A DNA stretch of 64,000 nt from an uncultured Acidobacteriota bacterium (GTDB lineage: Bacteria; Acidobacteriota; Blastocatellia; RBC074). Location: the NCBI GenBank assembly GCA_963699175.1, contig OY969418.1, forward strand, positions 1,666,791-1,730,790. The letters run 5' to 3'. The translations under genes were made by a program, and so were the position numbers. The notes beneath the pieces were generated by a model. It saw only the letters and a list, made by a program, of their open reading frames with translations, searched no databases and was not told where the DNA came from. Each line of letters opens with the position of its first letter. Position 1 is the stretch's first letter. Shown here piece by piece: positions 11,411-28,096 of this stretch.

Positions 11411-13792
11411 ATGTCTATTACACCTAAACAAGTTTACGCCCGCGTCTGGCTGGCAGCATTCGTTATCTGTTTGGCGCTTGCCAGCCTGGCGCCAATCGTC
11501 AGCGCGCGCTTGGCTGTGAGCGCCAACTCGCATCACGCCGCGCCAAACCCCGCCCCGCCGGCTGGGCTTGCACGCGCGCAGGACGAGCTGGCGGCGCCGG
11601 ATGCGCACACGCTCTTACTGCTCCACTTCAATGGCTCGCTCACCGGCGTCCAAGGTGAGCAACCAACGCAAGCACAGGGAACCTCCTTTGTCAGCGGAGT
11701 GGCTGGGCAAGGCGTGCTGGTGGATGGCGCGGATGTGCTCAAGTACGCCACCCTGAACAATTTCAATGCGGCGGCTGGCAGCTTAGAGTTTTGGCTCAAG
11801 CCGCTCTGGAACGGTAACGATGGCGCCAGCCGTTGTCTTTTCACCGTCGGCAATAATGAGTTCGTGCTGGTCAAGGATGGGGGTAATAACTTCCGGTTCA
11901 TCATCAAAGGCGACGATTCGGAAGCCTACCACAGCTACCAGCTTGCTTCCTGGGTCGCCAATCAATGGCATCACATCGCTGTGACCTGGACCATTCCCGG
12001 AGAAATGAAGACCTATTTCGACGGCAAGCTGGCCATCTCCCATGCAGCCTCCCAGCAAGACTTGCTTTCCCCGCTGCCCGCCGAACTGATTTTAGGCGGC
12101 AACAATGGCGCTTGTCGGGCCGAAGCGGTGCTCGACGAGCTGCGGATCAGCGACATCGCACGCTCCCCGCAAGAAATAGCTAAGCACCTGAAGCAGGGCT
12201 TGACGATCAATGGCTGGTCTTTCGACCCGCCAACTATCAACATCAAGATGTATCCGGGCTGGTCATGGTGGGCCACGCCGGGATTGATTGCGAACACGCC
12301 AGCCGGGACTTTGACCCTTCCCACGCTGGCCGCTAACTGGGTCAGTTCCAATCCGGGCGTGGCCTCGATGGAGGCAACCGGACGCATCAAAGCCGAGGCG
12401 CCTGGCTCAGCTACCTTAACCGCTGCGCTGGGAAGACAGTTGCACAGCCTCGCGGTGGAGGTGCTGGCGCCAGCCCGGCCACCCACAGTAGAAACGATTG
12501 ATCCTTACCTGGCGACACCAGCCCGCGACTATCTTTACCGCATGCCGGTCGCGATCATCCGGTACTTGCCAACCCGGAACGGCGTTGATGTTGATGCCGA
12601 AGTGTCGGGTTATGTCGGCACCTTAGCCGGACTCAAAAGCAGGCTCGAAAATAGGGAAAAGCAGAAGAAGTTTATGCTGGAAGAAGGCAGCCGGTTCCGC
12701 GGTTACAAAGCCTTGCGCGACCCCACAAACCCACCGGCGCACCCTTCCCTCGGTTATCAGGTCGTCAAGATCATCACGGTCTATGAGGACCTACCGCCTG
12801 GACCAGACTTGAACGGGGACGGCATCTCCGCCCCGGACTACCATCAAATCTTGACTCGCTGGGGCGGCGCGCAGTTAGTCAACGAGCTGGGCGTCAAGGA
12901 GTTTTGGCTCTGGCAGTATCATTACGGTCGCCTCGCGCCGATAGAATCGAATATGTCCAGCCCGACCACGAATGATATTTCCAATGGTGGTGGCGGTAAC
13001 GACGATATGCCGATCTACAATCGCACCTACGTTGTGTATGGTCTTAACTTCGGAACCGGAGCTAACGAAGCCGTCCACGATCATGGGCATCAGCTCGAAA
13101 GGATCTACGGCTTCGTGAGCCAGCTACAGGATGGCAATCCCAATCTGTTCTGGCGTAAGTTCTCGGGCCGCGATGATAATGATCAAACCATCACCGGTCG
13201 CTGTGGCAACACGCACACTCCGCCCAATACCCTGGCGGACTATGACTATGGCAACGCTACCGAAGTCTTGAGTGACATCGAAGACTGGACGCCAGCCAAT
13301 CTCGGAGAAAAGAAGTCGGTGAGCGCGGCCACCTGGCGAAGCATCCCCTATGCTTTCCCCTACGATGGCGAGCCAGTCGAACCGTGGTACGTCTACTGGA
13401 TGCAAGCCATGCCAGGCCGGGGCAACCGGATTCCGCACGGCGGCAACCAGATGACCAACTGGTGGCATTTCACCGGGGATTGGGATGCGAGTATTAAGGC
13501 AGGTTTGGGGCTGTATGAGCCTGGCTCCTGTAATTACACCCTCTCCGCCACCACCGGCCACCCCGCCTCCACCAATGGCGGACCGGGCAGCGTCAATGTA
13601 AGTAGCGGCAGCGGGTGCAAGTGGATCGCTTCGAGCAATGTGCCGTGGATTATCATCACCTCGCCAAGCTTCGGTAACGGTGACGGCACGGTCAGGTTCA
13701 GCGTCGCTGCGAATGCTGGCACACCGCGCGCAGGCACGATTGCGATTGCCGGCAAGCTCTTTACTGTCAAGCAGGCAGGCACTTTTGACTAA
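11411..13792 (+). CDS. secreted LamG (concanavalin-like) / Big_2 / BACON-like domain protein
   Basis: The start at 11411 is preceded by GGAGGAAGG. Signal/TM MSITPKQVYARVWLAAFVICLALASLAP. A LamG jelly-roll (GSLEFWLKP...WHHIAVTW...LDELRISD) and a Big_2-like stretch (NWVSSNPGVASMEATGRIKAEAPGSATLTAAL) follow. C-terminal BACON-like motif (GCKWIASSNVPWIIITSPSFGNGDGTVRFSVAANAGTPRAGTIAIAG). The track ORF starts upstream at 11246. Confidence 0.6.
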   Translation: MSITPKQVYARVWLAAFVICLALASLAPIVSARLAVSANSHHAAPNPAPPAGLARAQDELAAPDAHTLLLLHFNGSLTGVQGEQPTQAQGTSFVSGVAGQGVLVDGADVLKYATLNNFNAAAGSLEFWLKPLWNGNDGASRCLFTVGNNEFVLVKDGGNNFRFIIKGDDSEAYHSYQLASWVANQWHHIAVTWTIPGEMKTYFDGKLAISHAASQQDLLSPLPAELILGGNNGACRAEAVLDELRISDIARSPQEIAKHLKQGLTINGWSFDPPTINIKMYPGWSWWATPGLIANTPAGTLTLPTLAANWVSSNPGVASMEATGRIKAEAPGSATLTAALGRQLHSLAVEVLAPARPPTVETIDPYLATPARDYLYRMPVAIIRYLPTRNGVDVDAEVSGYVGTLAGLKSRLENREKQKKFMLEEGSRFRGYKALRDPTNPPAHPSLGYQVVKIITVYEDLPPGPDLNGDGISAPDYHQILTRWGGAQLVNELGVKEFWLWQYHYGRLAPIESNMSSPTTNDISNGGGGNDDMPIYNRTYVVYGLNFGTGANEAVHDHGHQLERIYGFVSQLQDGNPNLFWRKFSGRDDNDQTITGRCGNTHTPPNTLADYDYGNATEVLSDIEDWTPANLGEKKSVSAATWRSIPYAFPYDGEPVEPWYVYWMQAMPGRGNRIPHGGNQMTNWWHFTGDWDASIKAGLGLYEPGSCNYTLSATTGHPASTNGGPGSVNVSSGSGCKWIASSNVPWIIITSPSFGNGDGTVRFSVAANAGTPRAGTIAIAGKLFTVKQAGTFD

Positions 13793-14405: not shown

Positions 14406-14773
14406 CGGCCCCACCTCACTTACCGCTCAAGTCTGCGCAGAATCATTCGGGTCTTCCGGCCAAACCCTCAGTCGGCGAAAGCAGACGCAGCACCCGGGGC
14501 GAGTTGCCAGGCTCACTCTAGCCTTTTGTTCAACCGCGCCTTGCTTGATTGACAGTCCGCGCACGCATGCATACAGTGACGGCGAGTCAGCGCGGCTTTC
14601 TCACACAGTAGTAACTACCAAAAGCCGCGCTCACCTGATGGCGAACAAGACCTATTGGCGGCGACCGAGTCATCACTCACACAATGATGCTCGTTGGCCG
14701 CACTACTGCATCGGCAATTCAACTCAAACAAAAAATCGCGCACGTCACAACGCGTACGCGGCGATACTACATA

Positions 14774-17700
14774 ATGAGACTACACACACGCAGAACGATT
14801 TGTGCGCTCAGCCTATTGCTGGGCGCAGTAGGCTTAAGTTGGTTGGGTTGGGGCGCGCAAGCTGAGCACGCAGCATTGACGCAGCGCGGCAGCCTACTGC
14901 GTGCAGCGAGTGCCACTGCGCCCGCAGCCACGCTCGCCTTCGCCTCGACCATCACTGTCAACAGCACGGATCAGGAAGTCACCAGCGCCAATCCTACCGG
15001 CATCGCCAACGGCAATTGCACACTGGGCGAAGCGATCCTCTCGGCCAATACGAACAGCAATGTCGGCGGCTGCACGGGCAGTGGTGGCGGCGCGCCCTTC
15101 ACCATCGTGCTCTCGAATGCTGCTTACACACTCACCGCGCGCGGCGATGCGAACAACAATTTCGGCTTCAACGGGCTGCCTCCAGTCACGAGCCAGATCA
15201 TCATTCAGGGCAATGGGGCGATCATCGAGCGCAACAGCGCGGACGTCACGCCTAGCTTCCGACTCTTCTACATTTCGCCAGCGGGCGACCTGACGTTGCA
15301 AGATCTGACCTTGCGCAATGGGCTGGCGCAGGGCGGCGCGGGCAACGGCGACACTACTTCAAACGGCGGCGGCGGCGGCGGGGCGGGCTTAGGCGGAGCG
15401 ATTTACAATCGGGGCAAGCTCAGCGTCATACGTAGCACACTCACCAACAACACGGCGCGGGGCGGGCAAGGCGGCAACGGCAGCGGAAATGAAGCCAGCG
15501 GTGGCGGCGGTGGCGGAGGACTGGGTGGCAACGGTGGCAGCAGCAGCGGAGCGGGCGGCGGCGGCGGCGGCGGGTTTGGCGGCAATGGCGGCACGAGCGG
15601 TACGGGTGCTGGTGGTGCGGGCGGCGGCGGCACGATGACTGATGGCGCGACCAATGGTGGCAGCAGCGGTGGGGCGGGCGGCGTTGCGAACGGCGGCAAA
15701 GGCAGCGATTCGCCTGGCAGTGCTGATAGCGGCGGTTTCGGTGGTGGCGGTGGTGGCGGTGCTACGGAGGGTGGTAGTGGTGACGGCGGCACTGGTGGCG
15801 GTGGTGGCGGTGGCGGGGCCAGCGCTGGGGGAGGCGGCTTTGGCGGTTTCGGCGGCGGTGGCGGTGGCCAGGCGAAAGAAGGCCAAGGCGGGTTCGGCGG
15901 GTTCGGTGGTGGTGGCGGCGCCGGCTTCGGCGGCGGCAGCGACTTTGGCGGCGGCACTGGTGGTGGCGGCACTGGTGGTAGCGGCGGTGGCGGCGCAGGA
16001 TTGGGCGGCGCAGTCTTCAACGATGGCTACAACATTGAAGGAGACGCTACTGTCAGCTTCAGTAACAGTACTATCTCGGGCAACTTTGCCATCGGAGGCG
16101 CGGGCGGAACGCGCTATAGTGGAAACGCCAGCGGCGGCGAGGCAGGAAAGGGACTGGGCGGCGGCGTCTTCAACCTCAACGGCACGCTCACCGTCAACAA
16201 CTCCACACTCGCCAACAACACTGCCGCGCAAGGTGGCGGCGGCCTCTACAATCTCGCAGCCTTTGAAGGTTCGGCAACCCTCAACCTCAACAGCACGATT
16301 GTCGCCGACACGGCGGGCGGCGCGACTGATTGCGTCAGCGCCGACGACTTTAGCAGTTTGACAAATACCGGGACGAACAACCTGATTGAGAAAAACGATA
16401 GTGAGGGTGCTTGCCCCGGCGCGCTCGTCACCACAGATCCACAGCTTGGAATGCTGCTAAACAACGGCGGACTGACTGCCACCCAGGCACTGTCATCGAG
16501 CAGCCCCGCATTGGACAAGGGGAAGAATCTAGACAGTCTGATGACTGACCAGCGTGGCACCGGCTTCGCGCGCAAGGTGGACCTGCCCGTCGCAAACGGC
16601 ACAGGCGATGGCACTGACATCGGAGCTTTCGAGCTTCAGGCGCTGGCTTCACCACCAACCATCAGCAAAGCTTTCAACCCAACCGGCATACAACTCAACA
16701 GCAGTTCGACGCTGAGCTTCATCATCACCAATCCCAATTCAGAAGCGGCGCTAACCGGAGTGAATTTTACTGATACTTTACCAAGCGGTTTGGTAGTTGC
16801 GACACCCAACGGTATAGGCGGCACCTGCGGCGGCACGATCACGGCCACTGAAGGCACGGGCACGGTCAGCCTGATGGGACTGAACATGTCAGCCAGCGCC
16901 TCCTGCACCATCAGCATTGATGTCACCGGCACGACTGTTGGCAGCAAAAACAACAGTGTGACGATCAACTCTGACCAGGGCCAAGGCAATACCGCCACTG
17001 CCACACTGGCTGTAGTCGCTGCGCCAACCATTGCCAAGAACTTCAACCCGACCTCCATCAATGTCGGCGGGGTAAGCCAACTCACGCTCACTTTCAGCAA
17101 CCCGGCTGGCAACGTGGCGCTAACCAACTTGGCCGTGACTGATCCGCTACCGCCAGGATTGACTGTGGCGGCCACGCCTGGACTGACGAATACCTGCAAC
17201 GGCACCGTGACGGGCGCGACAGCGGGCAGCAACTCGATCAGCTTGAGCAATGGCTCACTCGCTGCCGGGCCGAGCAGTTGCCAGGTGAAAGTCAACGTCA
17301 CCAGCGCCACGTCTGGCTCGGCGGTCAACACAACCGGCAATGTCACGGCGACCGGCAATGGCGTCAATGTGACGGGCAACACGGCCAGCGCGACACTCAC
17401 GGCCAACGTCGTAACCAGCACACCCGGCGTCACCATCGTTGACCCGTTCGGCTGCACTGGCCCTGGCGACGCGCTGACCGTGACGGTGGTCATCACCAAC
17501 ACAGCCGCCGCTGCGCAACCTGTCACCTTCAGTTCGACCCCGCTACCGGCAGGACTGGTCGGCTTGCCCGGCACCGGCACGAGCACAGTCGGCGCAGCGC
17601 CCACCGTGTCGTCCACCGGCGCGAACTTCGGCCCGGTCACACTTGCAGCGGGCCAGAGCGCGACGGTGACTTACCAAGTGCAAGTCGGCGATGTCGCCAG

Positions 17701-18706
17701 TGGCACGACGCTCTGCATCAACACTACCAGCACCTTCAGCGGCGTAGCAGGCCCGCCGGTGCAAGCCTGCGCGACGATCAATTGTCCAGCCGTCGGCCCC
17801 GGCCAGCTTTTCGGGAATGGTGAAGTAAGCGATCAGAAGGCAGGCAGTGTGTTGTTCTACAACCTCTACTCGTCGAGCATCGCCGCGCCCAACGCGCAGA
17901 ACACGCGTATTGCAATTACCAACACCAATCCCGCGCTGCCCATCGCCGTGCACTTGTTCTTCGTGGATGGAGCAACCTGCTCAATCGCCGATAGCCTAAT
18001 CTGCTTAACGCCCAATCAGACCGCCAGCTTCCTAGCTTCAGACATTGATCCGGGCACAACCGGTTACATTGTCGCGGTGGCTTCAGACTTGCGGACTGGC
18101 TGCCCCATCAATTTCAACTACCTGATTGGTGATGAGTATGTGAAGCTCTCCAGCGGCCACGCGGCTAACCTAGCGGCGGAAGGATTTGCGGCATTGGCTG
18201 GTGGCTTGCCCGCTTGCAACGGGCTCTCGGTGACTGCGCTGCTGAGCTTCGATGGCGCAAGCTACAACCGCGCACCGCGCGTACTAGCGGCCTCGAACGT
18301 ACCATCCAGGGCCAATGGCAACGACACACTGATCGTGTTGAATCGGGTGGGCGGCAGTTTGGCAGCCGGAGCCTCGACGCTCGGCGCGCTCTTCGGCATT
18401 CTCTACGATGATGCAGAGAATCCGCTGAGCTTTACTTTCACCGCAGGCCTCTGTCAGTTCCGCTCATCATTGAATAGCAGCTTCCCGCGCGTGGCGCCGC
18501 GCTTCGAACAGTTCATCCCGGCTGGGCGCAGCGGCTGGGCGAAGTTCTACTCGCAATCGGACATTGCGTTGTTGGGCGCGCAGCTTAACTTCAACACGAA
18601 TGCGGGGACGGCGGCGAATGCCTTCAATCAGGGGCACAACTTGCACAAGCTGACCTTGACGACGGCAGCGACCCTGACTATCCCAATCTTCCCGCCCAAC
18701 TGCTGA
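14774..18706 (+). CDS. giant secreted protein: beta-helix, Gly-rich repeat region, DUF11 repeats and a conserved C-terminal domain
   Basis: Start at MRLHTRRTICALSLLLGAVGLSWLGWGAQA (signal peptide); the track ORF starts at 14684. NCTLGEAILSANTN beta-helix entry motif. About 220 aa of GGxGG low-complexity. DUF11-like repeats (TISKAFNPTGIQLNSSSTLSFIITNPNSEAALTGVNFTDTLPSGL). The last ~310 aa are ~85% identical to the C-terminus of the 19060-23388 protein and end IFPPNC. Confidence 0.7.
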   Translation: MRLHTRRTICALSLLLGAVGLSWLGWGAQAEHAALTQRGSLLRAASATAPAATLAFASTITVNSTDQEVTSANPTGIANGNCTLGEAILSANTNSNVGGCTGSGGGAPFTIVLSNAAYTLTARGDANNNFGFNGLPPVTSQIIIQGNGAIIERNSADVTPSFRLFYISPAGDLTLQDLTLRNGLAQGGAGNGDTTSNGGGGGGAGLGGAIYNRGKLSVIRSTLTNNTARGGQGGNGSGNEASGGGGGGGLGGNGGSSSGAGGGGGGGFGGNGGTSGTGAGGAGGGGTMTDGATNGGSSGGAGGVANGGKGSDSPGSADSGGFGGGGGGGATEGGSGDGGTGGGGGGGGASAGGGGFGGFGGGGGGQAKEGQGGFGGFGGGGGAGFGGGSDFGGGTGGGGTGGSGGGGAGLGGAVFNDGYNIEGDATVSFSNSTISGNFAIGGAGGTRYSGNASGGEAGKGLGGGVFNLNGTLTVNNSTLANNTAAQGGGGLYNLAAFEGSATLNLNSTIVADTAGGATDCVSADDFSSLTNTGTNNLIEKNDSEGACPGALVTTDPQLGMLLNNGGLTATQALSSSSPALDKGKNLDSLMTDQRGTGFARKVDLPVANGTGDGTDIGAFELQALASPPTISKAFNPTGIQLNSSSTLSFIITNPNSEAALTGVNFTDTLPSGLVVATPNGIGGTCGGTITATEGTGTVSLMGLNMSASASCTISIDVTGTTVGSKNNSVTINSDQGQGNTATATLAVVAAPTIAKNFNPTSINVGGVSQLTLTFSNPAGNVALTNLAVTDPLPPGLTVAATPGLTNTCNGTVTGATAGSNSISLSNGSLAAGPSSCQVKVNVTSATSGSAVNTTGNVTATGNGVNVTGNTASATLTANVVTSTPGVTIVDPFGCTGPGDALTVTVVITNTAAAAQPVTFSSTPLPAGLVGLPGTGTSTVGAAPTVSSTGANFGPVTLAAGQSATVTYQVQVGDVASGTTLCINTTSTFSGVAGPPVQACATINCPAVGPGQLFGNGEVSDQKAGSVLFYNLYSSSIAAPNAQNTRIAITNTNPALPIAVHLFFVDGATCSIADSLICLTPNQTASFLASDIDPGTTGYIVAVASDLRTGCPINFNYLIGDEYVKLSSGHAANLAAEGFAALAGGLPACNGLSVTALLSFDGASYNRAPRVLAASNVPSRANGNDTLIVLNRVGGSLAAGASTLGALFGILYDDAENPLSFTFTAGLCQFRSSLNSSFPRVAPRFEQFIPAGRSGWAKFYSQSDIALLGAQLNFNTNAGTAANAFNQGHNLHKLTLTTAATLTIPIFPPNC
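17780..18706 (+). repeat. paralogous conserved C-terminal domain module, copy 1 (~85% nt identity to 22459-23388)
   Basis: CPAVGPG...VLFYNLYSSSIAAPNAQNTRIAITNT...IFPPNC versus CPLVGPG...VLVYNLYSSSISAPNQQNTRIAITNT...IFPPNC. Confidence 0.85.
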
Positions 18707-19059
18707 AGCAACTGGGTGAGGGTGACTTGAAGATACGCGGCGGCAGGACTGACATCAGATGCCGTCGCGTTTTTATTTACTTAAAAGTTTAGGTTGATTG
18801 ATCTACTCTGCGGATTGCATTACACTTACGCCCGCAAGCGGTTTTCTTCACAGCCAACCAGAGCAATCCTGAATTGGTCATTCACTGGTAGACCAGGTTT
18901 CAGGTGCACCGCCGGCAGTCCCAGGCAGTATTGGCGGACTCGTTAGTTACGACAGACTTAGTTTGAGCAGCCCGTCGTGTTTACCGGACGGTGACGCTGG
19001 TTGACGCGGGGTTTTGCCTACAGTTTTTCTGCGTGGACGCTAAGCTGATTGACAAGTAG

Positions 19060-22000
19060 ATGATGACTAATCGGAAATTACTTATGACTACTACACACAA
19101 ACACACATTCTTTCTAAGCAAACAATCCTTCCGCTCTTCAGCAATCAAACAAACTTGTGGGCAGGCGTTCAGGTGGTTGAGCGCTCACCGTCGTTTATCT
19201 TTCTTGCTCGCGGGCTTGCTCGTGGCTGTCTTCACGTTGGCAAGTGTGGCCGTTCGTGCGGCCAAAGATGGCGGGGTGAGGCCGGGCAATTTTTCTGCCG
19301 CCTCACCGGCTGCTGCGCCTGTCGCGCCTAAAGTTGCGATGGGTACAAACATCGTCGTCAACAGCACGGCGGATGGCACGCTGGTGACGCTGGCAGGCAA
19401 CGCCACCTGCGATCTACGCGAAGCGATTCAGGCGGCCAATACGAACGCCATTGTCGGTCAGTGCCCGGCGGGCATGGCAGGGATGGACACCATTACCTTC
19501 AGCGGCGCTGGCGTCGGCACCATCACCGTCAGTTCCGTGCTGCCGACGATCGCGGAGCCGGTGACGATTGACGGCTTTCAAGGCATGAATACCTGTCCGG
19601 CGACGGGGTTGCCCGCGCCTGCGACAATGCAGGTTATTCTCAACGGCAACAATGGCAACTTCGACGGCCTGACTTTCAATGTGACCAGCGGCACAGGGCC
19701 AAGCATCGTGCGCGGGCTGGTCATACGCAATTTCAATCTGGACGGCATTCAGGTCAACACGACGAACGCAGCAAACTTCCTGACCTGCCAGTGCAACTAC
19801 ATCGGCACGGCAGCCGATGGCGTGACCGGCACGACTACCAACCGGAACGACGACAACGGCATCGAGATTGACAACTCGCCCAACAACATCATCGAGCGCA
19901 ATCTCATCTCAAATAACGGCTCCTCAACCCTCATCCCACTCGCCGCCATCGGCAGCGGCGTGGCGATTTTGAACGCGAGCGCGACCGGTAACATCGTGCG
20001 CGGCAATTACATCGGCACGGATGTTACGGGCGCGGCAGACCTGGGCAACAACCTCCAGGGCGTTAATATCAACAACGCGCCCAACAACACCATCGGCGGA
20101 ACAACAACCACTGACCGCAACGTCATCTCCGGTAATAATGCGAACGGGGTGCTCATCACTGGCGCGGGCGCTACGGGCAATAACGTGCGCGGCAATTACA
20201 TCGGTCTGGCTGCAGACGGCACGACGGTCCGCAACAACAGCATCAATGGCGTGAGCATTAGCGGCGCAGCCAACAACATTATCGGTGGCGCGACGGCAGG
20301 GGCGCGCAATGTGATCTCCGGCAATGGTTCGCTCATCGTTGGCAACGGCGTTGATATGATAGTCGCCGGCACGACCGGGAATCAGGTGCTCGGCAATTAT
20401 ATCGGCACGGATGCGACCGGTACGCTCGACCGCGGCAATGCGGTGTATGGGGTGAACATCACTGGCTTATCGGGTAACTTCGTGGGCGGAATCAACGCTG
20501 GCGAAGGCAATGTGATTTCCGGCAACGGGGGCAATGGCGTACAGCTCACCGGCGGTGGCGCAAGCAACAATAGCGTGCGCGGCAATTACATCGGCACCAA
20601 CGCCGCTGGCACTGCCGCCATCCCGAATGATTTCTTTGGAATCGGTATCGTGTTGGGCGCCCACGACAACACCATCGGTGGAACGGCCGCTGCCGCGCGC
20701 AACGTCATCTCCGGCAATGCCGGTGATGGCATCCAGATCAGCGCGGCTCTCAACAACAGCATCTTCGGTAATTACATCGGCACAAACGCCGCGGGCACGG
20801 GCGCGGTCGCCAATGGTGATGACGGCGTGGACATTCAGTTGGGTTCAAACGGCAACATGGTCGGCGGCACAGCGGCGGGCGCAGGCAACTTGATCGCCAA
20901 CAACACCTCCAATGGCGTCGAGATCAATGCCGCGGCGGGTACCACCAATTCCGTGCTCGGCAACTCCATCACCGCGAATGGTGCGCTAGGCATAGATCTG
21001 TCAACAACCGGTGTGACACTCAACGATACGGACGACCCCGACTTAGGCGCCAATAATAGGCAGAACTTCCCCGTGCTGACTTGCGCGGTCAGCAGCAATG
21101 GCCAGACCACCGTGAGCGGCTCGCTCGACAGCTTGGCCAGTACCGATTTCCGCATCGAGTTTTTTGCCAATACTGCTTGCGACGCTTCGGGCTATGGTGA
21201 AGGCCAAACCTTTCTCGGCTCGGTCAATGTCACGACCAATGCCAGCGGCGATGCGGTGATTAACACTACCCTGCCGGTGGTAGTTGCTGCCGGGAGTTCC
21301 ATCACGGCTACGGCCACCCGCCTGAATGCAGGCACTCCGGCTGAGACATCCGAGTTTTCGCAATGTCTGGCGTCGTTCGCACCGACACTGACGATCAATG
21401 ACGTCAGCTTCGCGGAAGGCAACGCCGGGATGACAGCGTTCAATTTTACGGTCACGCTCGCGGGCGCACAGGGATTCCTCTGCCCAGTCACGGTCAATTT
21501 CGGTACGGCTGACAATACGGCGACAATCGCCAACAACGATTACGCAGCGAATAGCGGGATGTTGACGTTCAATCCGCCGTTTGCTTCCAACACCGTGACG
21601 CAAACCGTCACGGTGCAGGTCAATGGCGATACGACCGTCGAAGCCAACGAGACGTTCTTCGTTAATTTGACGAACGCCACAGGGGCAACCATTACCGATG
21701 CCCAGGGACAAGGCACGATCACCAATGACGACTTCGCCACCATTGCCATCAACGATGTCAGTGTCGTCGAAGGCAACGCGGGCACTACCAACGCGACCTT
21801 CAATGTCACGATGAGCCATCCGAGCGCCGAGCAGGTAACGGTCAATTTCACTACTGCGAACGGCACGGCGACAACCGCTGGCAACGATTACGTAGCAACG
21901 AACGGCACGGTCACTTTTGCACCCGGCGTGACATCGCAAATGATCACGGTACAAGTCAACGGCGACACGACGCCGGAGACGAATGAAACTTTCTTCGTCA

Positions 22001-23388
22001 ATTTGAGCAACATTGTGGGCAACAATGCTGCCGTCCCCGATCCGACCTTCGCCAACAATGACAATCAGGGACAAGGCACGATTCTCGACGACGATTTCTT
22101 GCGCTCAAGTTTGAGCGACCCGTTGAGTTGTACGGGGCCGGGCAATGTCATCAACGGCTTGATTCAAATAACGAATCCGAACGCCGCTCAGCAATCATTC
22201 TCGCTCACGACGACTTTCACCAATCTGGTCGGCGTGCCCAACACTTGCAGTGTGACGGGGGCGCTCCCCGGAGCGCCCTGCAACATTACGGCGAGCGGAC
22301 TCACCATTCTGACTGGTATGGTCGCAGGCAACGCCACAGTCAACGTGCAATTTCAAGCACAGGTCGCTGATGCCATCAACAGCGGCACGGTCAGCACGTC
22401 TTCTGTCGCCACTGTCGGCGCATTAACGGTAGGGCCAGTCGTCGCCAGCCTCGCCGTCAATTGTCCACTCGTTGGCCCAGGCTTGCTGGCAGGCGCACAA
22501 AACCAAATCGGCGATCAAACGGCAGGCTCGGTACTGGTCTACAACCTCTACTCGTCAAGCATCTCTGCGCCTAATCAGCAAAACACGCGCATTGCGATCA
22601 CTAACACCCATCCAGGCTTGTCCATCGCTGTGCACTTGTTCTTTGTAGACGGCGCGACCTGCTCAATCGCTGACAGCTTGGTCTGTTTGACGCCAAATCA
22701 GACGGCGAGCTTCCTCGCTTCGGACATTGATCCGGGCACGACGGGTTACATCGTCGCCGTGGCGTCGAATTTGGTGACCGGCTGTCCAGTGGACTTCAAT
22801 TACTTGATTGGCGATGCGTACGTGAAGCTCTCAAGCGGGCACGCAGCCAACTTGGCTGCCGAGGGGTTTGCTGCGCTGGCCGGTGGCTTGCCCGCCTGCG
22901 ACGGTCTTTCGGTGACGGCGCTGCTGAGCTTTGACGGGACGAGCTACAACCGCGCGCCGCGTGTGCTGGCGGCCTCGAACATCCCAGCCAGAGCCGATGG
23001 CAATGACACACTGATCGTCTTGAATCGCGTGGGCGGCAGTTTGGCAGCAGGTGCGGCGACACTCGGTGCGATCTTCGGCATTCTCTATGATGATGCCGAG
23101 AACCCGCTGAGCTTCAACTTCACCGCAGGCGTCTGTCAGTTCCGCTCATCGTTGAGTAACAGCTTCCCGCGCACCGCGCCACGTTTCGAGCAGTTCATTC
23201 CAGCAGGGCGCAGCGGTTGGGCGAAGTTCTTCTCGCAATCGGACATCGCGTTGCTGGGCGCGCAGCTCAACTTCAATGCGAACGCAGGGACAGCAGCGAA
23301 TGCCTTCAATCAGGGGCACAATCTGCACAAGCTGACGCTGACATCAGCGGCGACGTTGACTGTTCCGATCTTCCCGCCGAACTGCTAA
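19060..23388 (+). CDS. giant secreted protein: right-handed parallel beta-helix repeats, 3 Calx-beta domains and the conserved C-terminal domain
   Basis: Signal-like RRLSFLLAGLLVAVFTLASVAVRA. CDLREAIQAANTN entry motif. Many NxISGNxxxGVxI beta-helix repeats. Calx-beta repeats (NDD...GDTTVEANETFFVNL, three times). C-terminal ~310 aa paralogous to 17780-18706. Confidence 0.7.
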   Translation: MMTNRKLLMTTTHKHTFFLSKQSFRSSAIKQTCGQAFRWLSAHRRLSFLLAGLLVAVFTLASVAVRAAKDGGVRPGNFSAASPAAAPVAPKVAMGTNIVVNSTADGTLVTLAGNATCDLREAIQAANTNAIVGQCPAGMAGMDTITFSGAGVGTITVSSVLPTIAEPVTIDGFQGMNTCPATGLPAPATMQVILNGNNGNFDGLTFNVTSGTGPSIVRGLVIRNFNLDGIQVNTTNAANFLTCQCNYIGTAADGVTGTTTNRNDDNGIEIDNSPNNIIERNLISNNGSSTLIPLAAIGSGVAILNASATGNIVRGNYIGTDVTGAADLGNNLQGVNINNAPNNTIGGTTTTDRNVISGNNANGVLITGAGATGNNVRGNYIGLAADGTTVRNNSINGVSISGAANNIIGGATAGARNVISGNGSLIVGNGVDMIVAGTTGNQVLGNYIGTDATGTLDRGNAVYGVNITGLSGNFVGGINAGEGNVISGNGGNGVQLTGGGASNNSVRGNYIGTNAAGTAAIPNDFFGIGIVLGAHDNTIGGTAAAARNVISGNAGDGIQISAALNNSIFGNYIGTNAAGTGAVANGDDGVDIQLGSNGNMVGGTAAGAGNLIANNTSNGVEINAAAGTTNSVLGNSITANGALGIDLSTTGVTLNDTDDPDLGANNRQNFPVLTCAVSSNGQTTVSGSLDSLASTDFRIEFFANTACDASGYGEGQTFLGSVNVTTNASGDAVINTTLPVVVAAGSSITATATRLNAGTPAETSEFSQCLASFAPTLTINDVSFAEGNAGMTAFNFTVTLAGAQGFLCPVTVNFGTADNTATIANNDYAANSGMLTFNPPFASNTVTQTVTVQVNGDTTVEANETFFVNLTNATGATITDAQGQGTITNDDFATIAINDVSVVEGNAGTTNATFNVTMSHPSAEQVTVNFTTANGTATTAGNDYVATNGTVTFAPGVTSQMITVQVNGDTTPETNETFFVNLSNIVGNNAAVPDPTFANNDNQGQGTILDDDFLRSSLSDPLSCTGPGNVINGLIQITNPNAAQQSFSLTTTFTNLVGVPNTCSVTGALPGAPCNITASGLTILTGMVAGNATVNVQFQAQVADAINSGTVSTSSVATVGALTVGPVVASLAVNCPLVGPGLLAGAQNQIGDQTAGSVLVYNLYSSSISAPNQQNTRIAITNTHPGLSIAVHLFFVDGATCSIADSLVCLTPNQTASFLASDIDPGTTGYIVAVASNLVTGCPVDFNYLIGDAYVKLSSGHAANLAAEGFAALAGGLPACDGLSVTALLSFDGTSYNRAPRVLAASNIPARADGNDTLIVLNRVGGSLAAGAATLGAIFGILYDDAENPLSFNFTAGVCQFRSSLSNSFPRTAPRFEQFIPAGRSGWAKFFSQSDIALLGAQLNFNANAGTAANAFNQGHNLHKLTLTSAATLTVPIFPPNC
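22459..23388 (+). repeat. paralogous conserved C-terminal domain module, copy 2
   Basis: See 17780-18706. Confidence 0.85.
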
Positions 23389-23411: not shown

Positions 23412-26009
23412 CTAGCGGATTTGTCGTGTAATCGTCGGATCGGTGATCTGCCGATCAGCGGCGAGCAGGAAGGCTTTGCTCAGAATGATGGCCAGCATGT
23501 TGTCGCCTTCAAAAGGAAGAAAGACTTTGCCATTCAATCCCTCAGCCGTGCCGCGCCCAGGTACGATGCACAAATACTGATCGTTCGGCTCCATCAAAAT
23601 ATTGCCGCTGCCCAAGTGGATTTTGTAGGTGCGTAACTCGCCGCGCACAATCAAAAAGCGTTCGCTGAGACGGCAACGCTCGGCAATTTTCAAGCGCGGG
23701 ATCAAGCGTTCCAACACCTGCTTGCGCGTGGCTGCTGTCGCCGTTAGTTCACCAAAGGAATACGATTGCCAGTAATCAACATAGCGCCCTTGCGGCCCGC
23801 CATCCGCCCAGTTGGGATCATTAGCCACGCTGGCCACGCCGACGAACAGATCAACATCGCGCATGATTTCGCTAAAGACGAGCGGCGGAATCTCTGCGAG
23901 CGGTAGCGGCTCAACGACCTCTCCTACACCGCGAAAAAGATTCAAGTGATACCCGCCGCCGCCCACGTGCGCTGCATTCTGCCGGGCATTGAGTGGATAG
24001 AAGCGCACCTGATCGGTCGTCAGATAAAGAAACGTGCCCGTCTCGTTCGTGTCTACGCCAAAGTTGTCGCCGACGCTCTCGACCCAAAATTCAGCGCGCA
24101 GATTACAGGCCGCCAAGTGGCGCTGCGCGGGCGGGCATTCATCATCCACCATCAGCCGCAGCTTGTTCTTCCACGCGCGATTGGCACAAAGCGCGTTGAA
24201 TTGATGCTGCTTGATGACGTGCGCGGCAAAGCGATTGGAATAGGTGTGCGTGTTGCGCTCGGCGTCGGTCAGCACGTAAATCTCGCGGTGCGCCTGTTTG
24301 AACGGCTGGCGCAGTTCATGCTCGCTCAACCATTCGCGCCAAGCCAGCACTCGCTCAGTCGGCTCATTCAATGGATGCCACAACTCAACAGTAGCGGCTT
24401 CATCTAGCCCGTCCAATGGCAACCAAGCCAACGGTGCACCGTGCACGTCAACTATCTGCCCGTCGAACCAGATGCCCGATGCCTGCTGTTCGCCCTGGCT
24501 GAATTGCCAGATCAACCGCCGCGCCAAGCTGCCGACCAATGGATGATCCAGATAACGTGCGCGCCAAACAGCGAACGGCCAGCGTCGCAGTTCAAGATAT
24601 AGATTCTCAATGCGGTCGCGTTGCGCGGGTAGCATCTTGGCAACGTCTTTGGCCGCTTGCTGCAATTCTTTCAGCTCTTCGGAGTGCTCTTCTTTGACCG
24701 CTTTGGGCACGGAGGCTTGCGCTTTGCCATCGGACTTGCGCCAGTGCAGTTCTACGTCGTGCGTGCCATTGACCACGAGTTCAGCCGTGAATTCGCCAAG
24801 CTGTTCGCGCGCGCAACCGACTTCTTGTAAGCCATAGGTCGGCACGGCAAGCTCCTCGATCTCGGCAGGCGGCAAGCCCGTGCGAGTAGCGGCGGCCAGC
24901 AAAGCCTTTTCAATTCCCTTTTGCGCCGTGCCGAATTTAACTTTTAGTTTGAGCAGCGCAAGTTGCGCGATGCCTTCCATGCCAGGCATATTGCCGAGCG
25001 CCCAGACGCAGGCATTGCCCACGCGGACGCAACGCGGGCCAAGCATCGGCACTTTGCGATAGGCCGAAACGGCTAAGGCCAGTAACGCGCGTGCCAACTC
25101 TTTATCCTCACGTTGCCCGCACAGCCAGGCCAGCCCCTTGAGGATGTCGGCATTGGTTTCTATCAACACTAAGTTGGGATTAGCTTCCCATTGCGACCAA
25201 CGCTCAACCGCTTGCGTGCGCGGTTTATCAACTAGCGGCAGCCAGCGGAGCAGCGCCGCTTTGAAATTATCGAAGCCGATAATTTCAAGCTGGGCGGTGG
25301 CGGCTTTGAGCCATTTGGGGCTTGGCGCTGAGCCTGACGGTTGCGAACAATGATCGAGCAGTTCGAGCCAGGGCTGGCGCGCCTCGGCGGCCAGCATCTC
25401 CAGTTCAACCCGCGCCACGTCGGCCCACGCATCACCCGGCACGAGCGGGCTTTTCATCGCCCGCTCGCCCAACAATTCTCTCAGTCGCTTCGCCCAGTTG
25501 CGATGCTCCATCGTTTGATAACCCTTTTCCACACGGGCCAACTGCTGTTCAATTTTGGCTCTGACAGCCGCGTCCAGTTCAGACTCCTGCGCGTAATATT
25601 CCAACTGCCTGATGACCAGCCCGGTATCGCAGTAGTAGTCCCCATCAAAATAGTCCAGCAGTCGCAGCATCTCCGTTGGCGCAAACGGTAATTTGCGTTT
25701 GAGCAAGGCGCGCATGATTTGCCGTGACGCCCAGTAAGCCGTGCTGCCGCCGCATATCATAAAAACCGCGCTCCCGGCGGCCTGGTGTTCCAAGCTCGCA
25801 TGCGACACCTGCGGCGCTGCGCTAGAGCGTTTAGTCGCAGCGGTGATCGCCAGGACAACCTGCGCCTGTTCCTGCGGCGACAGCGTCAGCAATTGACGGC
25901 CACTCGCATAGTCCTTCAAATCGTACCAATAGCTATTGCTAGCTTCGCTGCTGAGCTGCTCGATTAAGCTGTGATATTGCGTCGCGCGCTCGCGCGTTAA
26001 AACTTCCAT
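23412..26009 (-). CDS. large cytoplasmic protein, possibly DUF4132 (MolR-like) family
   Basis: 865 aa with no signal peptide. The family assignment rests only on overall architecture and the C-terminal region (..YLCIVPGRGTAEGLNGKVFLPFEGDNMLAIILSKAFLLAAD); my recognition is weak. Its start codon is 1 nt after the stop of the upstream Ubl gene. Confidence 0.45.
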   Translation of the reverse strand: MEVLTRERATQYHSLIEQLSSEASNSYWYDLKDYASGRQLLTLSPQEQAQVVLAITAATKRSSAAPQVSHASLEHQAAGSAVFMICGGSTAYWASRQIMRALLKRKLPFAPTEMLRLLDYFDGDYYCDTGLVIRQLEYYAQESELDAAVRAKIEQQLARVEKGYQTMEHRNWAKRLRELLGERAMKSPLVPGDAWADVARVELEMLAAEARQPWLELLDHCSQPSGSAPSPKWLKAATAQLEIIGFDNFKAALLRWLPLVDKPRTQAVERWSQWEANPNLVLIETNADILKGLAWLCGQREDKELARALLALAVSAYRKVPMLGPRCVRVGNACVWALGNMPGMEGIAQLALLKLKVKFGTAQKGIEKALLAAATRTGLPPAEIEELAVPTYGLQEVGCAREQLGEFTAELVVNGTHDVELHWRKSDGKAQASVPKAVKEEHSEELKELQQAAKDVAKMLPAQRDRIENLYLELRRWPFAVWRARYLDHPLVGSLARRLIWQFSQGEQQASGIWFDGQIVDVHGAPLAWLPLDGLDEAATVELWHPLNEPTERVLAWREWLSEHELRQPFKQAHREIYVLTDAERNTHTYSNRFAAHVIKQHQFNALCANRAWKNKLRLMVDDECPPAQRHLAACNLRAEFWVESVGDNFGVDTNETGTFLYLTTDQVRFYPLNARQNAAHVGGGGYHLNLFRGVGEVVEPLPLAEIPPLVFSEIMRDVDLFVGVASVANDPNWADGGPQGRYVDYWQSYSFGELTATAATRKQVLERLIPRLKIAERCRLSERFLIVRGELRTYKIHLGSGNILMEPNDQYLCIVPGRGTAEGLNGKVFLPFEGDNMLAIILSKAFLLAADRQITDPTITRQIR

Positions 26010-26676: not shown

Positions 26677-28080
26677 CTACCAAATCAACTCAAACTCGTA
26701 ATCCGCCGCATCGCCTTGCGGATCGCGGATGCGAATCACCGCCGTCCAACCGTTCGACAACGCAGGCTGTTCGACAAGCTCGACTGAACCGCGCACTTTG
26801 AGGTTGCGGATGCGCAAGTTGAGTTCGCGCGCGGGCAGCGGAGTAGTGAAAGTGTATTTGCCATTGTTGAACGCGCTACCCGCTACATTGCGTTCCGTTA
26901 CTTTATCGCCACGCACATTGAGTAGCACTTCGATGTCTACGCGCCCGCGCCAACGCATGCTGCCCGGCGTGTAGGACGATTCCGGCGCAGGCGTAGTTAT
27001 TGCGCCGCGCTCGTTACGCACACGCCCACCAGTATAAGTCTCGGCCTGCTGTGTGGCGCGCGTGAAGCGGAAGCGTTGATTGGGCCTACCATTCTCGCTC
27101 CACACATACATTCTGACATTGTCTTCGGTGCTGCTGTTTGGCAGATCAAGCGCCTTGCCGAGCCGCGAGACGATGGTGAATTCGCCGTTGCCTTTCGGCG
27201 CTATGCGCCACTTCTGCTGGTCGCTATTGTTGAGAATTCTGCCAAGCACGACTGAGCCATCGCGCACACGGCGGTCTGCCACCTCCAACGCTTTGCCGTT
27301 CGCGGCAGAGCGAATATAGAAGTAGCCACCGCCCGCGTCTTCAATGTCCCACTGTTGATTGCGTTGGCCGTGTGGCGGATGTTGGATCAGCGATTCACTG
27401 TCGCGTCCATCCAGGTCGAGCGCCTTGCCGCTTGCGACAATCTGAATCGTGTAACGCCCAGGGCCGTTGAAGAGCGCGTTACGATCAATCGGAGCGGGCG
27501 TAGGCGTTGGCGTAGGACGCCATTCGATATTCCGTTCGCGCGGGCGCGGGACGTTGGCTACCGGTAGATCGCCAAGGCGATAAAAGCGGAAACGCTGGTT
27601 CTCCAGCCCGTGCAATCCCATCACCTGTAGTCGCGCGCCGTCTTGCGTGCGGTTGCTGGCGGGCACGTCCAAGGCTTTGCCAGCTCTGGCCACGATGGTG
27701 TATTGCGCGCTGCCCGTCTCGCTGATCCTCCACTTCTGATAGTCACTGTCGCGTTTGTCGGCCACGATCACACCGCCGCCGTCGCGCGCGCGGTTTTCGG
27801 CGAAGTCCATCACCCGGCCATTCTCGACTGAGCGGATAAAGTAGTAGCCGCCGCCCGCGTCTTCGACATCCCACTGCTGATTGCTCGCGCTGCTCGACGA
27901 CCATTGCTGCACTGTGCGTCCGTCCTCGCGGCGCAAGTCGAGCGCTTTGCCCGATGCGACATTCTCAATGCGATAACGGCCGGAACCACGAAAGCCTTCG
28001 TTTTGTGCATTGACGCTGTGATTGTGTGCGACGGCCCAGCCGCATAGTGCGGCAAGCGATAAGAGCATCCATCTGCGCAT
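26677..28080 (-). CDS. secreted ricin-B (beta-trefoil) lectin-domain protein
   Basis: Start MRRWMLLSLAALCGWAVA (signal peptide) with RBS AAGGAGA. Two ricin-B-like modules with QxW motifs (QQWSS..NQQWDVED, DYQKWRI, NQQWDIED, DQQKWRI). C-terminal ~110 aa unassigned. The track ORF starts at 28161. Confidence 0.7.
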   Translation of the reverse strand: MRRWMLLSLAALCGWAVAHNHSVNAQNEGFRGSGRYRIENVASGKALDLRREDGRTVQQWSSSSASNQQWDVEDAGGGYYFIRSVENGRVMDFAENRARDGGGVIVADKRDSDYQKWRISETGSAQYTIVARAGKALDVPASNRTQDGARLQVMGLHGLENQRFRFYRLGDLPVANVPRPRERNIEWRPTPTPTPAPIDRNALFNGPGRYTIQIVASGKALDLDGRDSESLIQHPPHGQRNQQWDIEDAGGGYFYIRSAANGKALEVADRRVRDGSVVLGRILNNSDQQKWRIAPKGNGEFTIVSRLGKALDLPNSSTEDNVRMYVWSENGRPNQRFRFTRATQQAETYTGGRVRNERGAITTPAPESSYTPGSMRWRGRVDIEVLLNVRGDKVTERNVAGSAFNNGKYTFTTPLPARELNLRIRNLKVRGSVELVEQPALSNGWTAVIRIRDPQGDAADYEFELIW

Positions 28081-28096
28081 AAGGTCTCCTTGCAAA

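What the first reader, a model, noticed from the sequence alone, without database searches (positions are those of the whole stretch)
14774..23388. Two paralogous giant secreted proteins share a conserved ~310-aa Cys-containing C-terminal domain ending IFPPNC
The N-terminal 'passenger' regions are completely different. The first protein has a beta-helix, ~220 aa of Gly-rich low complexity and DUF11 repeats. The second has many parallel beta-helix repeats and three Calx-beta domains. Their last ~310 residues are ~85% identical, and the nucleotide identity at 17780-18706 versus 22459-23388 is also ~85% with mostly synonymous changes, so the module is under purifying selection. The module has a conserved CPxVGPG entry, several conserved Cys, an NxT-rich stretch and a C-terminal Cys. 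I do not recognise it as an autotransporter barrel, T9SS CTD, PEP-CTERM, LPXTG or S-layer domain. The arrangement of variable cargo plus a constant C-terminal module suggests a sorting/anchoring or secretion-partner-recognition domain, possibly a new surface-display system. No dedicated transporter is encoded between the two genes, which are tandem and on the same strand.
Basis: seen in the sequence. Interest (0 to 1): 0.75.

Follow-up and report, generated by a model that had tools for sequence, protein, structure and literature searches.

The report
Shared C-terminal module of acidobacterial surface proteins
Two neighbouring giant secreted proteins end in the same roughly 300-residue, disulfide-locked beta-sandwich module, which belongs to a large unnamed protein family of soil Acidobacteria (class Blastocatellia) and most likely acts as a shared binding or attachment foot rather than a short secretion tag.

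Summary
ORFs 14684/14774-18706 and 19060-23388 have unrelated N-terminal regions. Their last ~296 aa are 88.5% identical in protein and 81.8% in DNA, with dS 0.96 and dN/dS 0.07. This is an old duplication under strong purifying selection, not recent gene conversion.

The module is not private to these genes. It matches 1,038 clusters at 50% identity and at least 559 sites in species-representative genomes, essentially all Acidobacteriota/Blastocatellia, with at least 13 copies in one MAG. No Pfam, NCBIfam or PDB sequence match exists.

The module sits at the extreme C-terminus of very diverse adhesin-like proteins. It also occurs as a free protein (signal peptide plus module), and Cys-poor copies occur internally or N-terminally in relatives. 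No transporter or sortase is a conserved neighbour.

Best reading, by inference: an autonomous extracellular ligand- or glycan-binding attachment domain. A dedicated sorting domain is not excluded. It is an undescribed family with a known fold, of moderate interest.

The parts
14774..18706 (+). Gene 1. The ORF opens at 14684 (1340 aa); the probable start is the ATG at 14774 (1310 aa). It encodes a secreted giant protein with a variable N-terminal region, an adaptor and the C-terminal module.
14774..14863 (+). Sec-type signal peptide of protein 1 (MRLHTRRTICALSLLLGAVGLSWLGWGAQA|EH)
   Evidence: read from the translation; no predictor was run
15284..16183 (+). Gly-rich low-complexity region (30-68% Gly per 50-aa block) interspersed with Pmp-like GGA(I/V)(Y/F)N beta-helix repeats
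16436..16639 (+). choice-of-anchor Q domain (NF041518), aa 585-652
   Evidence: E 3e-16
16655..17353 (+). Two DUF7933 (DUF11-type Ig-like) domains, aa 658-890
17441..17785 (+). Cys-containing Ig-like adaptor domain (DPFGCTGPG ... NCP). It is a sub-threshold DUF7927/DUF11 match and is conserved in front of the module in most fused family members.
17786..18703 (+). C-terminal module of protein 1 (aa 1035-1340), made of two beta-sandwich halves. Conserved Cys lie at aa 1099/1107, 1140/1178 and 1257/1340. It ends IFPPNC followed by the stop codon.
18707..19059 (.). 353-bp intergenic spacer with no ORF of 100 aa or more and no transporter gene
19060..23388 (+). Gene 2 (1442 aa), a secreted giant protein with a different N-terminal region, an adaptor and the C-terminal module
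19189..19260 (+). Hydrophobic core and cleavage region of the signal peptide of protein 2 (RRLSFLLAGLLVAVFTLASVAVRA|AKDG)
   Evidence: read from the translation; no predictor was run
19351..19440 (+). CSLREA-type N-terminal motif (ATCDLREAIQAAN); TIGR04214 scores 22.4 bits, just below the cutoff of 25
20002..21099 (+). About six repeats of 60-65 aa (GNYIG...NVISGN) of right-handed beta-helix type. They are seen in the sequence; Pfam reports no match at E <= 0.1.
21388..22095 (+). Two Calx-beta domains (aa 777-891 and 895-1012)
22117..22464 (+). Cys-containing Ig-like adaptor domain of protein 2 (DPLSCTGPG ... NCP)
22465..23385 (+). C-terminal module of protein 2 (aa 1136-1442), 88.5% identical to that of protein 1

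Best explanation
**What it is.** Both genes encode Sec-exported, adhesin-like giant proteins. Their only shared part is a two-piece C-terminal cassette.
- The first piece is a ~115-aa Cys-containing Ig-like adaptor.
- The second is a ~305-aa self-folding module built from two 8-stranded beta-sandwiches and held by three intradomain disulfides: C69-C77, C110-C148 and C227-C310. The last pair staples the C-terminal strand.
- The C-terminal sandwich has the TM1070/ASRT ('ASRAH') fold. The N-terminal one is probably an ancient duplicate of it.

**Where it occurs.** The module defines a large undescribed family centred on Acidobacteriota class Blastocatellia, with many paralogues per genome. It occurs as a free secreted protein and as the C-terminal end of very diverse repeat proteins.

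**Proposed mechanism (inferred, not shown).**
1. The protein crosses the inner membrane by Sec.
2. The module folds and is oxidised in the periplasm or outside the cell.
3. Through conserved polar clefts on the second strand of each sandwich (N-T-R...N and N-D-T...N), it binds one conserved ligand. That ligand is most likely a glycan of the cell's own envelope or exopolysaccharide matrix.
4. Many different N-terminal regions are thereby tethered by one common 'foot', while free copies bind the same ligand.

On this reading it is an attachment or binding domain, not a cleavable sorting peptide.
For: **Shown.**
- Old duplication under purifying selection: dS 0.96, dN/dS 0.069.
- Family size: at least 1,487 hits among the candidates scored; 1,038 clusters at 50% identity, 608 of them at E <= 1e-30; at least 559 tblastn-confirmed sites in species-representative genomes. 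All 75 best loci are Acidobacteriota/Blastocatellia MAGs or are mislabelled.
- 98 module ORFs in 77 loci, nearly all ending (I/V)P(I/V)FPPxC-stop. Tandem module genes are common, and 13 copies lie on 8 contigs of one MAG.
- Free-standing forms with a signal peptide: for example P0088 (331 aa) on a 1.9-Mb contig, and three in tandem in L067.
- AF2 model of the module: pLDDT 87.3, pTM 0.87, all-beta, with two sets of eight strands of matching lengths.
- Cys co-loss pairs across 367 domain copies: patterns xxxxCCxx, xxCCxxCC and all-x.
- N-terminal regions are non-catalytic adhesin-type repeats: HYR, He_PIG, DUF7933, DUF11, FG-GAP, Big_3_5, Calx-beta, beta-helix and Kelch.

**From the literature.** ASRAH domains are predicted sugar binders. 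Their extracellular versions occur as dyads or tetrads and are proposed to bind cell-surface polysaccharide. Ligand-contacting residues lie on strand 2, which ends in a conserved Asn (PMC2739507).

**Inference.** Invariant R45, T49/N50 and G182, T185/N190 lie on the corresponding strands. Identity of 60-90% among paralogues across a whole class argues for one conserved partner.
Against: - No ligand, localisation or binding data exist.
- The similarity to ASRT is at fold level only. There is no Pfam ASRT hit even at E <= 10, and no PDB sequence hit.
- Internal duplication is not statistically established (hhalign P 0.07).
The disulfide pairing and the positions of the clefts are therefore inferred from sequence patterns.
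- Nothing shows how proteins of 1,300-5,800 aa cross the outer membrane.
- The near-universal extreme C-terminal position fits a sorting role equally well.
- No glycan-synthesis gene is consistently adjacent.
Confidence: 0.45

Rival explanations
1. Dedicated C-terminal sorting or secretion domain. The module would be recognised by an as yet unknown outer-membrane translocon or attachment enzyme, like the T9SS CTD in Bacteroidota. It would direct dozens of cargo proteins to the surface and might be removed or covalently attached afterwards.
For: - The module sits at the extreme C-terminus in about 345 of 367 domain copies, with a near-invariant FPPxC end.
- There are many paralogues per genome with unrelated cargo and N-terminal Sec signals.
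- It is a beta-sandwich, as T9SS CTDs are.
- The cargo carries choice-of-anchor Q and CSLREA-type domains.
- High conservation fits a single machinery partner.
Against: - At about 305 aa plus a 115-aa adaptor, it is 3-4 times the size of known sorting domains.
- It has three structural disulfides.
- Abundant proteins consist of signal peptide plus module only, with no cargo.
- Internal, N-terminal and multiple copies occur in relatives.
- No conserved neighbouring transporter, sortase or peptidase was found in 77 loci or in this window.
- There are no T9SS CTD, PEP-CTERM or LPXTG model hits.
Confidence: 0.2
2. Outward-facing adhesive tip or lectin (CBM-like). The module would bind an environmental substrate such as plant or microbial polysaccharide or a mineral-associated polymer, and the variable regions would be stalks anchored by other means.
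For: - Free secreted copies would act as soluble lectins.
- Other lectin-type genes lie nearby: ricin-B, CBM9-like and LamG.
Against: - After signal-peptide cleavage no other anchoring element is evident in P1 or P2, so the module is the only constant part.
- No catalytic domains appeared among the most frequent families in 49 scanned family members, whereas CBMs usually accompany enzymes.
- Identity of 60-90% across paralogues and species is unusually high for substrate-binding modules that face variable ligands.
Confidence: 0.2
3. Homo- or hetero-oligomerisation (scaffold) domain. Free-standing and fused modules would co-assemble, as in ASRT/TM1070 tetramers, into a multivalent complex or surface lattice that displays the variable regions.
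For: - TM1070 and ASRT are tetramers, and ASRAH domains occur as dyads or tetrads (PMC2739507).
- Free and fused copies coexist, often in tandem, in one genome.
- Sequence conservation is very high.
Against: There is no evidence of an S-layer-like abundance signal. Conserved polar strand-2 residues suggest ligand binding rather than only an interface.
Confidence: 0.1
4. Recent gene-conversion or duplication artefact with no wider family.
For: The two genes are tandem and on the same strand.
Against: Synonymous divergence is near saturation (dS 0.96), and nucleotide identity is only 82%. There are more than 1,000 clusters at 50% identity elsewhere.
Confidence: 0.01

Closest known systems
ASRAH superfamily: Anabaena sensory rhodopsin transducer (PDB 2II7) and Thermotoga TM1070 (PDB 1NC7), Pfam ASRT/DUF1362; De Souza, Iyer & Aravind 2009, PMC2739507
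   Same: - It is an eight-stranded beta-sandwich.
- A conserved Asn closes a polar, highly conserved early strand.
- Extracellular ASRAH domains occur as dyads, and this module looks like a dyad.
- Extracellular ASRAH versions are predicted to bind cell-surface polysaccharide.
   Different: - No sequence-level relationship is detectable (Pfam at E <= 10, PDB profile search).
- The signature Trp of strand 1 and the SHEshChhN motif are absent.
- This module has three disulfides and extra N- and C-terminal strands.
- It is fused to giant adhesin-like proteins rather than to amidases or actinobacterial lipoproteins.
- Its phyletic range is different (Blastocatellia).
TIGR03437 'Solibacter uncharacterized C-terminal domain' (Soli_cterm, an NCBIfam paralog_domain)
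   Same: It is an acidobacterial, lineage-expanded, uncharacterised domain of ~225 aa that forms the constant C-terminal end of many otherwise different secreted proteins. Such proteins (LamG + Ig + Soli_cterm) even lie next to module genes in 11 of 77 loci.
   Different: It is unrelated in sequence: no HMM hit, and hhalign P 0.3. Its length and motifs differ. In this window's 2355-aa protein it sits near the N-terminus.
T9SS C-terminal domains (Por_Secre_tail, type A/B CTD) of Bacteroidota
   Same: They are beta-sandwiches at the extreme C-terminus of many unrelated Sec-dependent cargo proteins, with many paralogues per genome.
   Different: They are 70-100 aa rather than ~305 aa and have no disulfide staples. 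They are not found as free-standing proteins or internal repeats. There are no HMM hits, and no T9SS genes are seen near any locus.
Non-catalytic carbohydrate-binding modules and lectin beta-sandwiches (CBM32, CBM35, galectin)
   Different: Structural scores are low and there is no sequence similarity. CBMs are normally appended to enzymes, whereas here the partners are structural repeats.

Membership tests
ASRAH / ASRT superfamily (PF07100) | Eight-stranded beta-sandwich with the TM1070/ASRT topology | tested here: met
   [not shown]
ASRAH / ASRT superfamily (PF07100) | Sequence-profile match to ASRT/DUF1362 or to TM1070/ASRT sequences | tested here: not met
   No Pfam hit to ASRT for any of 35 members at E <= 10. 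A profile search of PDB sequences gave 0 hits at E <= 10.
ASRAH / ASRT superfamily (PF07100) | Conserved Asn at the end of strand 2 and conserved Trp at the start of strand 1 (PMC2739507) | tested here: inconclusive
   Invariant N50 closes strand E43-50, and near-invariant N190 lies near the end of strand E183-192. No conserved Trp is present at strand 1. The residue-level structural alignment was not available.
ASRAH / ASRT superfamily (PF07100) | Extracellular versions occur as dyads or tetrads | tested here: inconclusive
   There are two sets of eight strands with matching lengths. A collinear half-versus-half hhalign alignment reaches only P 0.07.
T9SS C-terminal domain | Match to Por_Secre_tail / T9SS CTD models; size of ~70-100 aa | tested here: not met
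   No such Pfam or NCBIfam hit on either protein. The module is ~305 aa.
T9SS C-terminal domain | Cleavage by PorU and attachment to A-LPS; presence of T9SS genes | not testable with these tools
   This needs proteomics and a whole-genome gene inventory. No T9SS-like neighbour appeared in 77 loci.
PEP-CTERM / exosortase, LPXTG / sortase, MYXO-CTERM-type signals | Short motif followed by a hydrophobic helix and a basic tail at the C-terminus | tested here: not met
   Both proteins end ...LTIPIFPPNC-stop with no hydrophobic helix or basic tail. There are no NCBIfam hits.
Type V autotransporter | C-terminal 12-stranded (or larger) outer-membrane beta-barrel domain | tested here: not met
   No Autotransporter/OMP Pfam hit. 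The model consists of two soluble sandwiches, and three disulfides are inferred from Cys co-loss.
TIGR03437 Soli_cterm | HMM match to TIGR03437 | tested here: not met
   No hit on P1 or P2, while the model does hit other proteins here. hhalign of A1 against Soli_cterm sequences gives P 0.3.
T1SS RTX adhesins | No N-terminal signal peptide; RTX nonapeptide repeats; unstructured C-terminal signal | tested here: not met
   Both proteins have N-terminal Sec-type signal peptides. No RTX/HemolysinCabind hits were found.

The most novel reading that the evidence does not exclude
The adaptor-plus-module cassette is the handle of an undescribed surface-display system of Blastocatellia. Free-standing modules would form, or dock to, a conserved envelope scaffold. 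Dozens of giant adhesin-like proteins per cell would plug into it through the same module, possibly after recognition by an unidentified outer-membrane export route for disulfide-bonded folded proteins.
Probability: 0.15. Interest if true: 0.75.

Novelty: new variant of a known kind. Interest (0 to 1): 0.45.

Why it matters
Blastocatellia and other Acidobacteria are among the most abundant soil bacteria, yet little is known experimentally about how they build their cell surface or attach to particles.

This module marks more than a thousand protein clusters, with at least 13 genes in one MAG, and none carries an annotation. Defining it would let annotators recognise a whole class of surface or matrix proteins. 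A definition would cover its boundaries, six-Cys pattern, ASRT-like fold, adaptor domain and free-standing form.

It also offers one small soluble protein that can be expressed to find the ligand. If that ligand is an envelope or EPS glycan, it would explain how giant adhesin-like proteins are retained by cells that have no known sorting signal for them.

Tried and rejected
1. **Sequence libraries.** Pfam and NCBIfam scans of both full proteins, and a Pfam scan of 35 module sequences at E <= 10, gave nothing on the module.
2. **PDB sequences.** A profile search gave 0 hits.
3. **Foldseek against PDB.** Only TM1070 was convincing. The vicilin, XepA and LacZ hits have TM-scores below 0.25 and were rejected.
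4. **AFDB50 fold library.** It was not available.
5. **Source genome.** Exact-sequence look-ups of P1 (two start codons), P0001 and P0010 found no record. The cluster look-up gave no names.
6. **Conserved neighbours.** Clustering of 77 loci found nothing present in more than 11 loci. The two top clusters were LamG/Soli_cterm proteins and TonB-dependent-receptor-like proteins, which are probably just common in these genomes.
7. **Relation to Soli_cterm.** Rejected (hhalign P 0.3).
8. **Internal duplication.** hhalign gave E 0.32 with 35 sequences and 0.069 with 367 copies, which is suggestive only.
9. **Second homologue search.** The Cys-poor internal copies were used as query to reach named relatives. 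It returned 72 hits, all unnamed or Acidobacteria.
10. **Promoter and terminator scan.** Counts matched the shuffled expectation.
11. **Literature.** Searches for Blastocatellia C-terminal domains, TM1070/ASRT, and choice-of-anchor/CSLREA/TIGR03437 found no description of this module.
12. **Other secretion and toxin models.** Polymorphic toxins were rejected because there the C-terminus varies and the N-terminus is constant, the opposite of this case. T1SS RTX adhesins were rejected because Sec signals are present and RTX repeats are absent.

Full report
**1. Observation**

The + strand carries two long ORFs, 14684..18706 (1340 aa) and 19060..23388 (1442 aa), separated by 353 bp with no ORF of 100 aa or more.

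That start gives a classical Sec signal peptide, MRLHTRRTICALSLLLGAVGLSWLGWGAQA|EH. The second has a hydrophobic signal core, RRLSFLLAGLLVAVFTLASVAVRA|AK.

BLASTP between the two proteins aligns only the last 426 residues (72% identity, E 1e-179). Nothing else aligns. A sliding comparison shows two zones:
- About 110 aa at ~35% identity (P1 aa 916-1030).
- The last ~296 aa at 88.5% protein and 81.8% nucleotide identity.

Nei-Gojobori counts for the module give dS 0.96, dN 0.066 and dN/dS 0.069. Synonymous sites are nearly saturated while the protein barely changes. The similarity is therefore an old duplication under strong purifying selection, not recent gene conversion. tblastn finds only these two copies in the window.

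- P1 has Pmp-like GGA(I/V)(Y/F)N repeats, a stretch of ~300 aa with 30-68% Gly, a choice-of-anchor Q domain and two DUF7933 (DUF11-type) domains.
- P2 has a CSLREA-like motif (22.4 bits, just under the cutoff), about six GNYIG...NVISGN beta-helix-type repeats and two Calx-beta domains, not three.

**2. The module is a large family**

A word-indexed search with the 310-aa module returned at least 1,487 significant proteins among the 8,000 candidates scored. Where these carry names, they are hypothetical proteins from Blastocatellia or Acidobacteria MAGs. None has a Pfam assignment on the module.

An exhaustive phmmer search of 1.84 billion cluster representatives at 50% identity found 1,038 clusters at E <= 1e-3 and 608 at E <= 1e-30.

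All 75 best loci are Acidobacteriota/Blastocatellia MAGs. Several are titled 'uncultured Heliomicrobium', a Bacillota genus. These carry TonB-dependent-receptor-like neighbours and are probably mislabelled.

In those 77 loci I found 98 module-bearing ORFs. Nearly all end (I/V)P(I/V)FPPxC-stop. Tandem module genes are common: two in many loci and three in L020 and L067. One MAG (JBBQVH) has 13 copies on eight contigs. The tandem pair in this window is therefore typical of the family.

**3. Architectures**

- In about 345 of 367 full-length domain copies the module is at the extreme C-terminus. The host proteins range from about 400 to 5,807 aa.
- The preceding regions are very diverse but almost all non-catalytic repeats of adhesin type: HYR, He_PIG, DUF7933, DUF11, FG-GAP, Big_3_5, SdrD_B, Calx-beta, beta-helix, Kelch, LamG and P-domain.
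- In most fused proteins the module is preceded by a conserved ~115-aa Cys-containing Ig-like adaptor (DPxxCTGPG ... C.TVNCPxxGPG). It shows in the consensus of alignment A3. In P1 (and in P0001) it is a sub-threshold DUF7927/DUF11 match; P2's adaptor gave no such hit.
- Many family members are free-standing proteins of ~320-340 aa: a signal peptide ending in an AxA-type site, followed directly by the module. Examples are P0088, encoded on a 1.9-Mb contig, and three in a row in L067.
- A minority of more distant relatives (P0121, P0122, P0127, P0136, P0139, P0158) carry two or three copies, including N-terminal and internal ones.

**4. Cysteines**

The Blastocatellia-type module has six near-invariant Cys: positions 69, 77, 110, 148, 227 and 310 of the 310-aa unit. 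Across 367 aligned copies they are lost in pairs.
- Internal copies keep only C110/C148 (pattern xxxxCCxx) or none.
- Seven C-terminal copies lack only C110/C148 (pattern xxCCxxCC).

This indicates disulfides C69-C77, C110-C148 and C227-C310. The pairing is an inference from co-variation, because model coordinates could not be inspected. On this reading the terminal Cys is a structural staple for the last strand, not a free reactive or lipidated residue. It disappears when the domain is internal.

**5. Fold**

AlphaFold2 with a 35-sequence alignment gives a confident all-beta model (pLDDT 87.3, pTM 0.87). Residues 1-16 are disordered. Two sets of eight strands follow, with closely matching strand lengths, and the second half has extra edge strands.

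- Foldseek agrees that only TM1070 is convincing, and that no solved structure matches the whole module.
- Profile-profile alignment of the two halves is collinear. It pairs NTRIAITN with NDTLIVLN, DPGTTGY with PAGRSGW, and INFN...GH with LNFN...GH. It reaches only P 0.07, so an internal duplication is likely but not proven.

TM1070 and ASRT define the 'ASRAH' superfamily (PMC2739507). According to that paper:
- It is an eight-stranded sandwich.
- A ligand cleft is lined by strand 2, which ends in a conserved Asn.
- The domains are predicted to bind sugars.
- Extracellular versions occur as dyads or tetrads and are proposed to bind cell-surface polysaccharides.

In this module the most conserved polar residues (N43, T44, R45, T49, N50 and G182, N183, T185, N190, R191) lie on the corresponding early strand of each half.

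**6. Context**

Nothing in the window or in 77 related loci looks like a dedicated partner.

The window's neighbours are as follows:
- Upstream: a secreted LamG/Big_2/BACON protein.
- Downstream: a DUF4132/DUF7737 protein and a ricin-type lectin.
- Housekeeping genes: Pfam families of adenylosuccinate synthetase, starch (glycogen) synthase, aspartate-semialdehyde dehydrogenase, an amino-acid (aspartate-type) kinase and a PLP-dependent enzyme.
- Further out: a 2355-aa Ig/cadherin giant, a WD40 protein, a TIR ORF, peptidases and a MacB-type permease.

Clustering of all neighbour ORFs finds no family present in more than 11 of 77 loci. The top two are LamG + TIGR03437 (Soli_cterm) proteins and TonB-dependent-receptor-like proteins.

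**7. Interpretation**

Three things are shown: a real, ancient, strongly constrained and very widespread extracellular domain family; its boundaries, Cys pattern and fold; and its dominant C-terminal position alongside free-standing and internal forms.

One thing is inferred: the module is a self-sufficient binding or attachment unit with one conserved ligand, most plausibly a glycan of the cell's own envelope or matrix. It would give many different surface proteins a common foot.

Arguments for this reading:
- The fold is ASRT-like, with conserved polar strand-2 residues.
- The free-standing forms mean the module must do something without cargo.
- The N-terminal regions are non-catalytic adhesin-like repeats with no other anchoring element.
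- Conservation is unusually high across paralogues and species.

Arguments against:
- No binding or localisation data exist.
- The similarity to ASRT is at fold level only.
- The route across the outer membrane is unknown.

A CSLREA protein is a reported T2SS substrate in Acinetobacter (bioRxiv 10.1101/2022.02.01.478765). The idea is weakened by the module's size, its disulfides, the cargo-less and internal copies, and the absence of any linked machinery.

An outward-facing lectin tip (0.2) and an oligomerising scaffold (0.1) remain possible. A gene-conversion artefact is refuted.

**8. Comparison and novelty**

- By fold, the nearest known thing is the ASRAH (ASRT/TM1070) superfamily. The structural criterion is met for the C-terminal half. 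The sequence criterion is tested and not met, and the signature residues are only partly present. I therefore describe the module as ASRT-like rather than file it as a member.
- By organisation, the nearest precedent is TIGR03437 Soli_cterm, another acidobacterial constant C-terminal paralogue domain of unknown function. It is unrelated in sequence.
- By possible role, the analogy is to T9SS CTDs or cell-wall-binding modules. None of their defining features that could be tested is met.

The family is absent from Pfam (2025 copy) and NCBIfam (June 2026), and I found no paper describing it. I rate it a new variant of a known kind: an undescribed family built on a known fold and used in a familiar constant-end, variable-body architecture. 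Interest is moderate (0.45). It would be clearly higher if the module proves to be the handle of a new display or export system (probability about 0.15).

Noticed in passing
window 37601-44668 (+): A 2355-aa giant protein with Big_9, He_PIG and cadherin repeats. It carries the 'Solibacter uncharacterized C-terminal domain' (TIGR03437) at aa 100-307, near its N-terminus rather than at the C-terminus. It also has a BNR/sortilin-like (F510_1955 glycosylhydrolase-like) region near aa 2075-2219.
   Followed up: partly
window 45433-49134 (+) and 49165-49665 (-): A 1233-aa WD40-repeat protein lies next to a convergent 166-aa TIR_2-domain ORF. This could be a defence-type or signalling pair.
   Followed up: no
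window 23412-26009 (-) and 26677-28161 (-): Directly downstream of the two genes lie a DUF4132 + DUF7737 protein and a secreted protein with four ricin-B lectin repeats. Neither is a conserved neighbour of module genes elsewhere.
   Followed up: partly
window 11246-13792 (+); loci L013, L021, L024, L026, L031, L035, L041, L042, L043, L051, L062: A secreted LamG/Big_2/BACON protein lies just upstream of gene 1. In 11 of 77 related loci a LamG + Ig + TIGR03437 (Soli_cterm) protein lies near module genes. This may be simple co-abundance of surface-protein genes.
   Followed up: partly
loci L005, L012, L015, L019, L022, L023, L025, L026 and others: MAG records titled 'uncultured Heliomicrobium sp.' or 'Heliobacteriaceae' (Bacillota) carry Blastocatellia-type module genes at 60-68% identity. 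Some (for example L019, L022, L023, L026) also carry TonB-dependent-receptor-like outer-membrane proteins. The taxonomic labels are probably wrong.
   Followed up: partly
P0121, P0122, P0127, P0136, P0139, P0158: Distant relatives carry 2-3 copies of the module per protein, including N-terminal and internal copies that have lost the C69/C77 and C227/C310 cysteine pairs. These copies are interleaved with Big_3_5-type Ig repeats. Their taxonomic origin is unknown.
   Followed up: partly
window 15389-16231 (-), 15403-16020 (-), 15642-16361 (+), 16636-17640 (-), 21043-22074 (-): Long antisense or alternative-frame ORFs overlap the two genes. The first three lie in the Gly-rich, 64% GC stretch of gene 1. 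They are almost certainly composition artefacts rather than genes.
   Followed up: no
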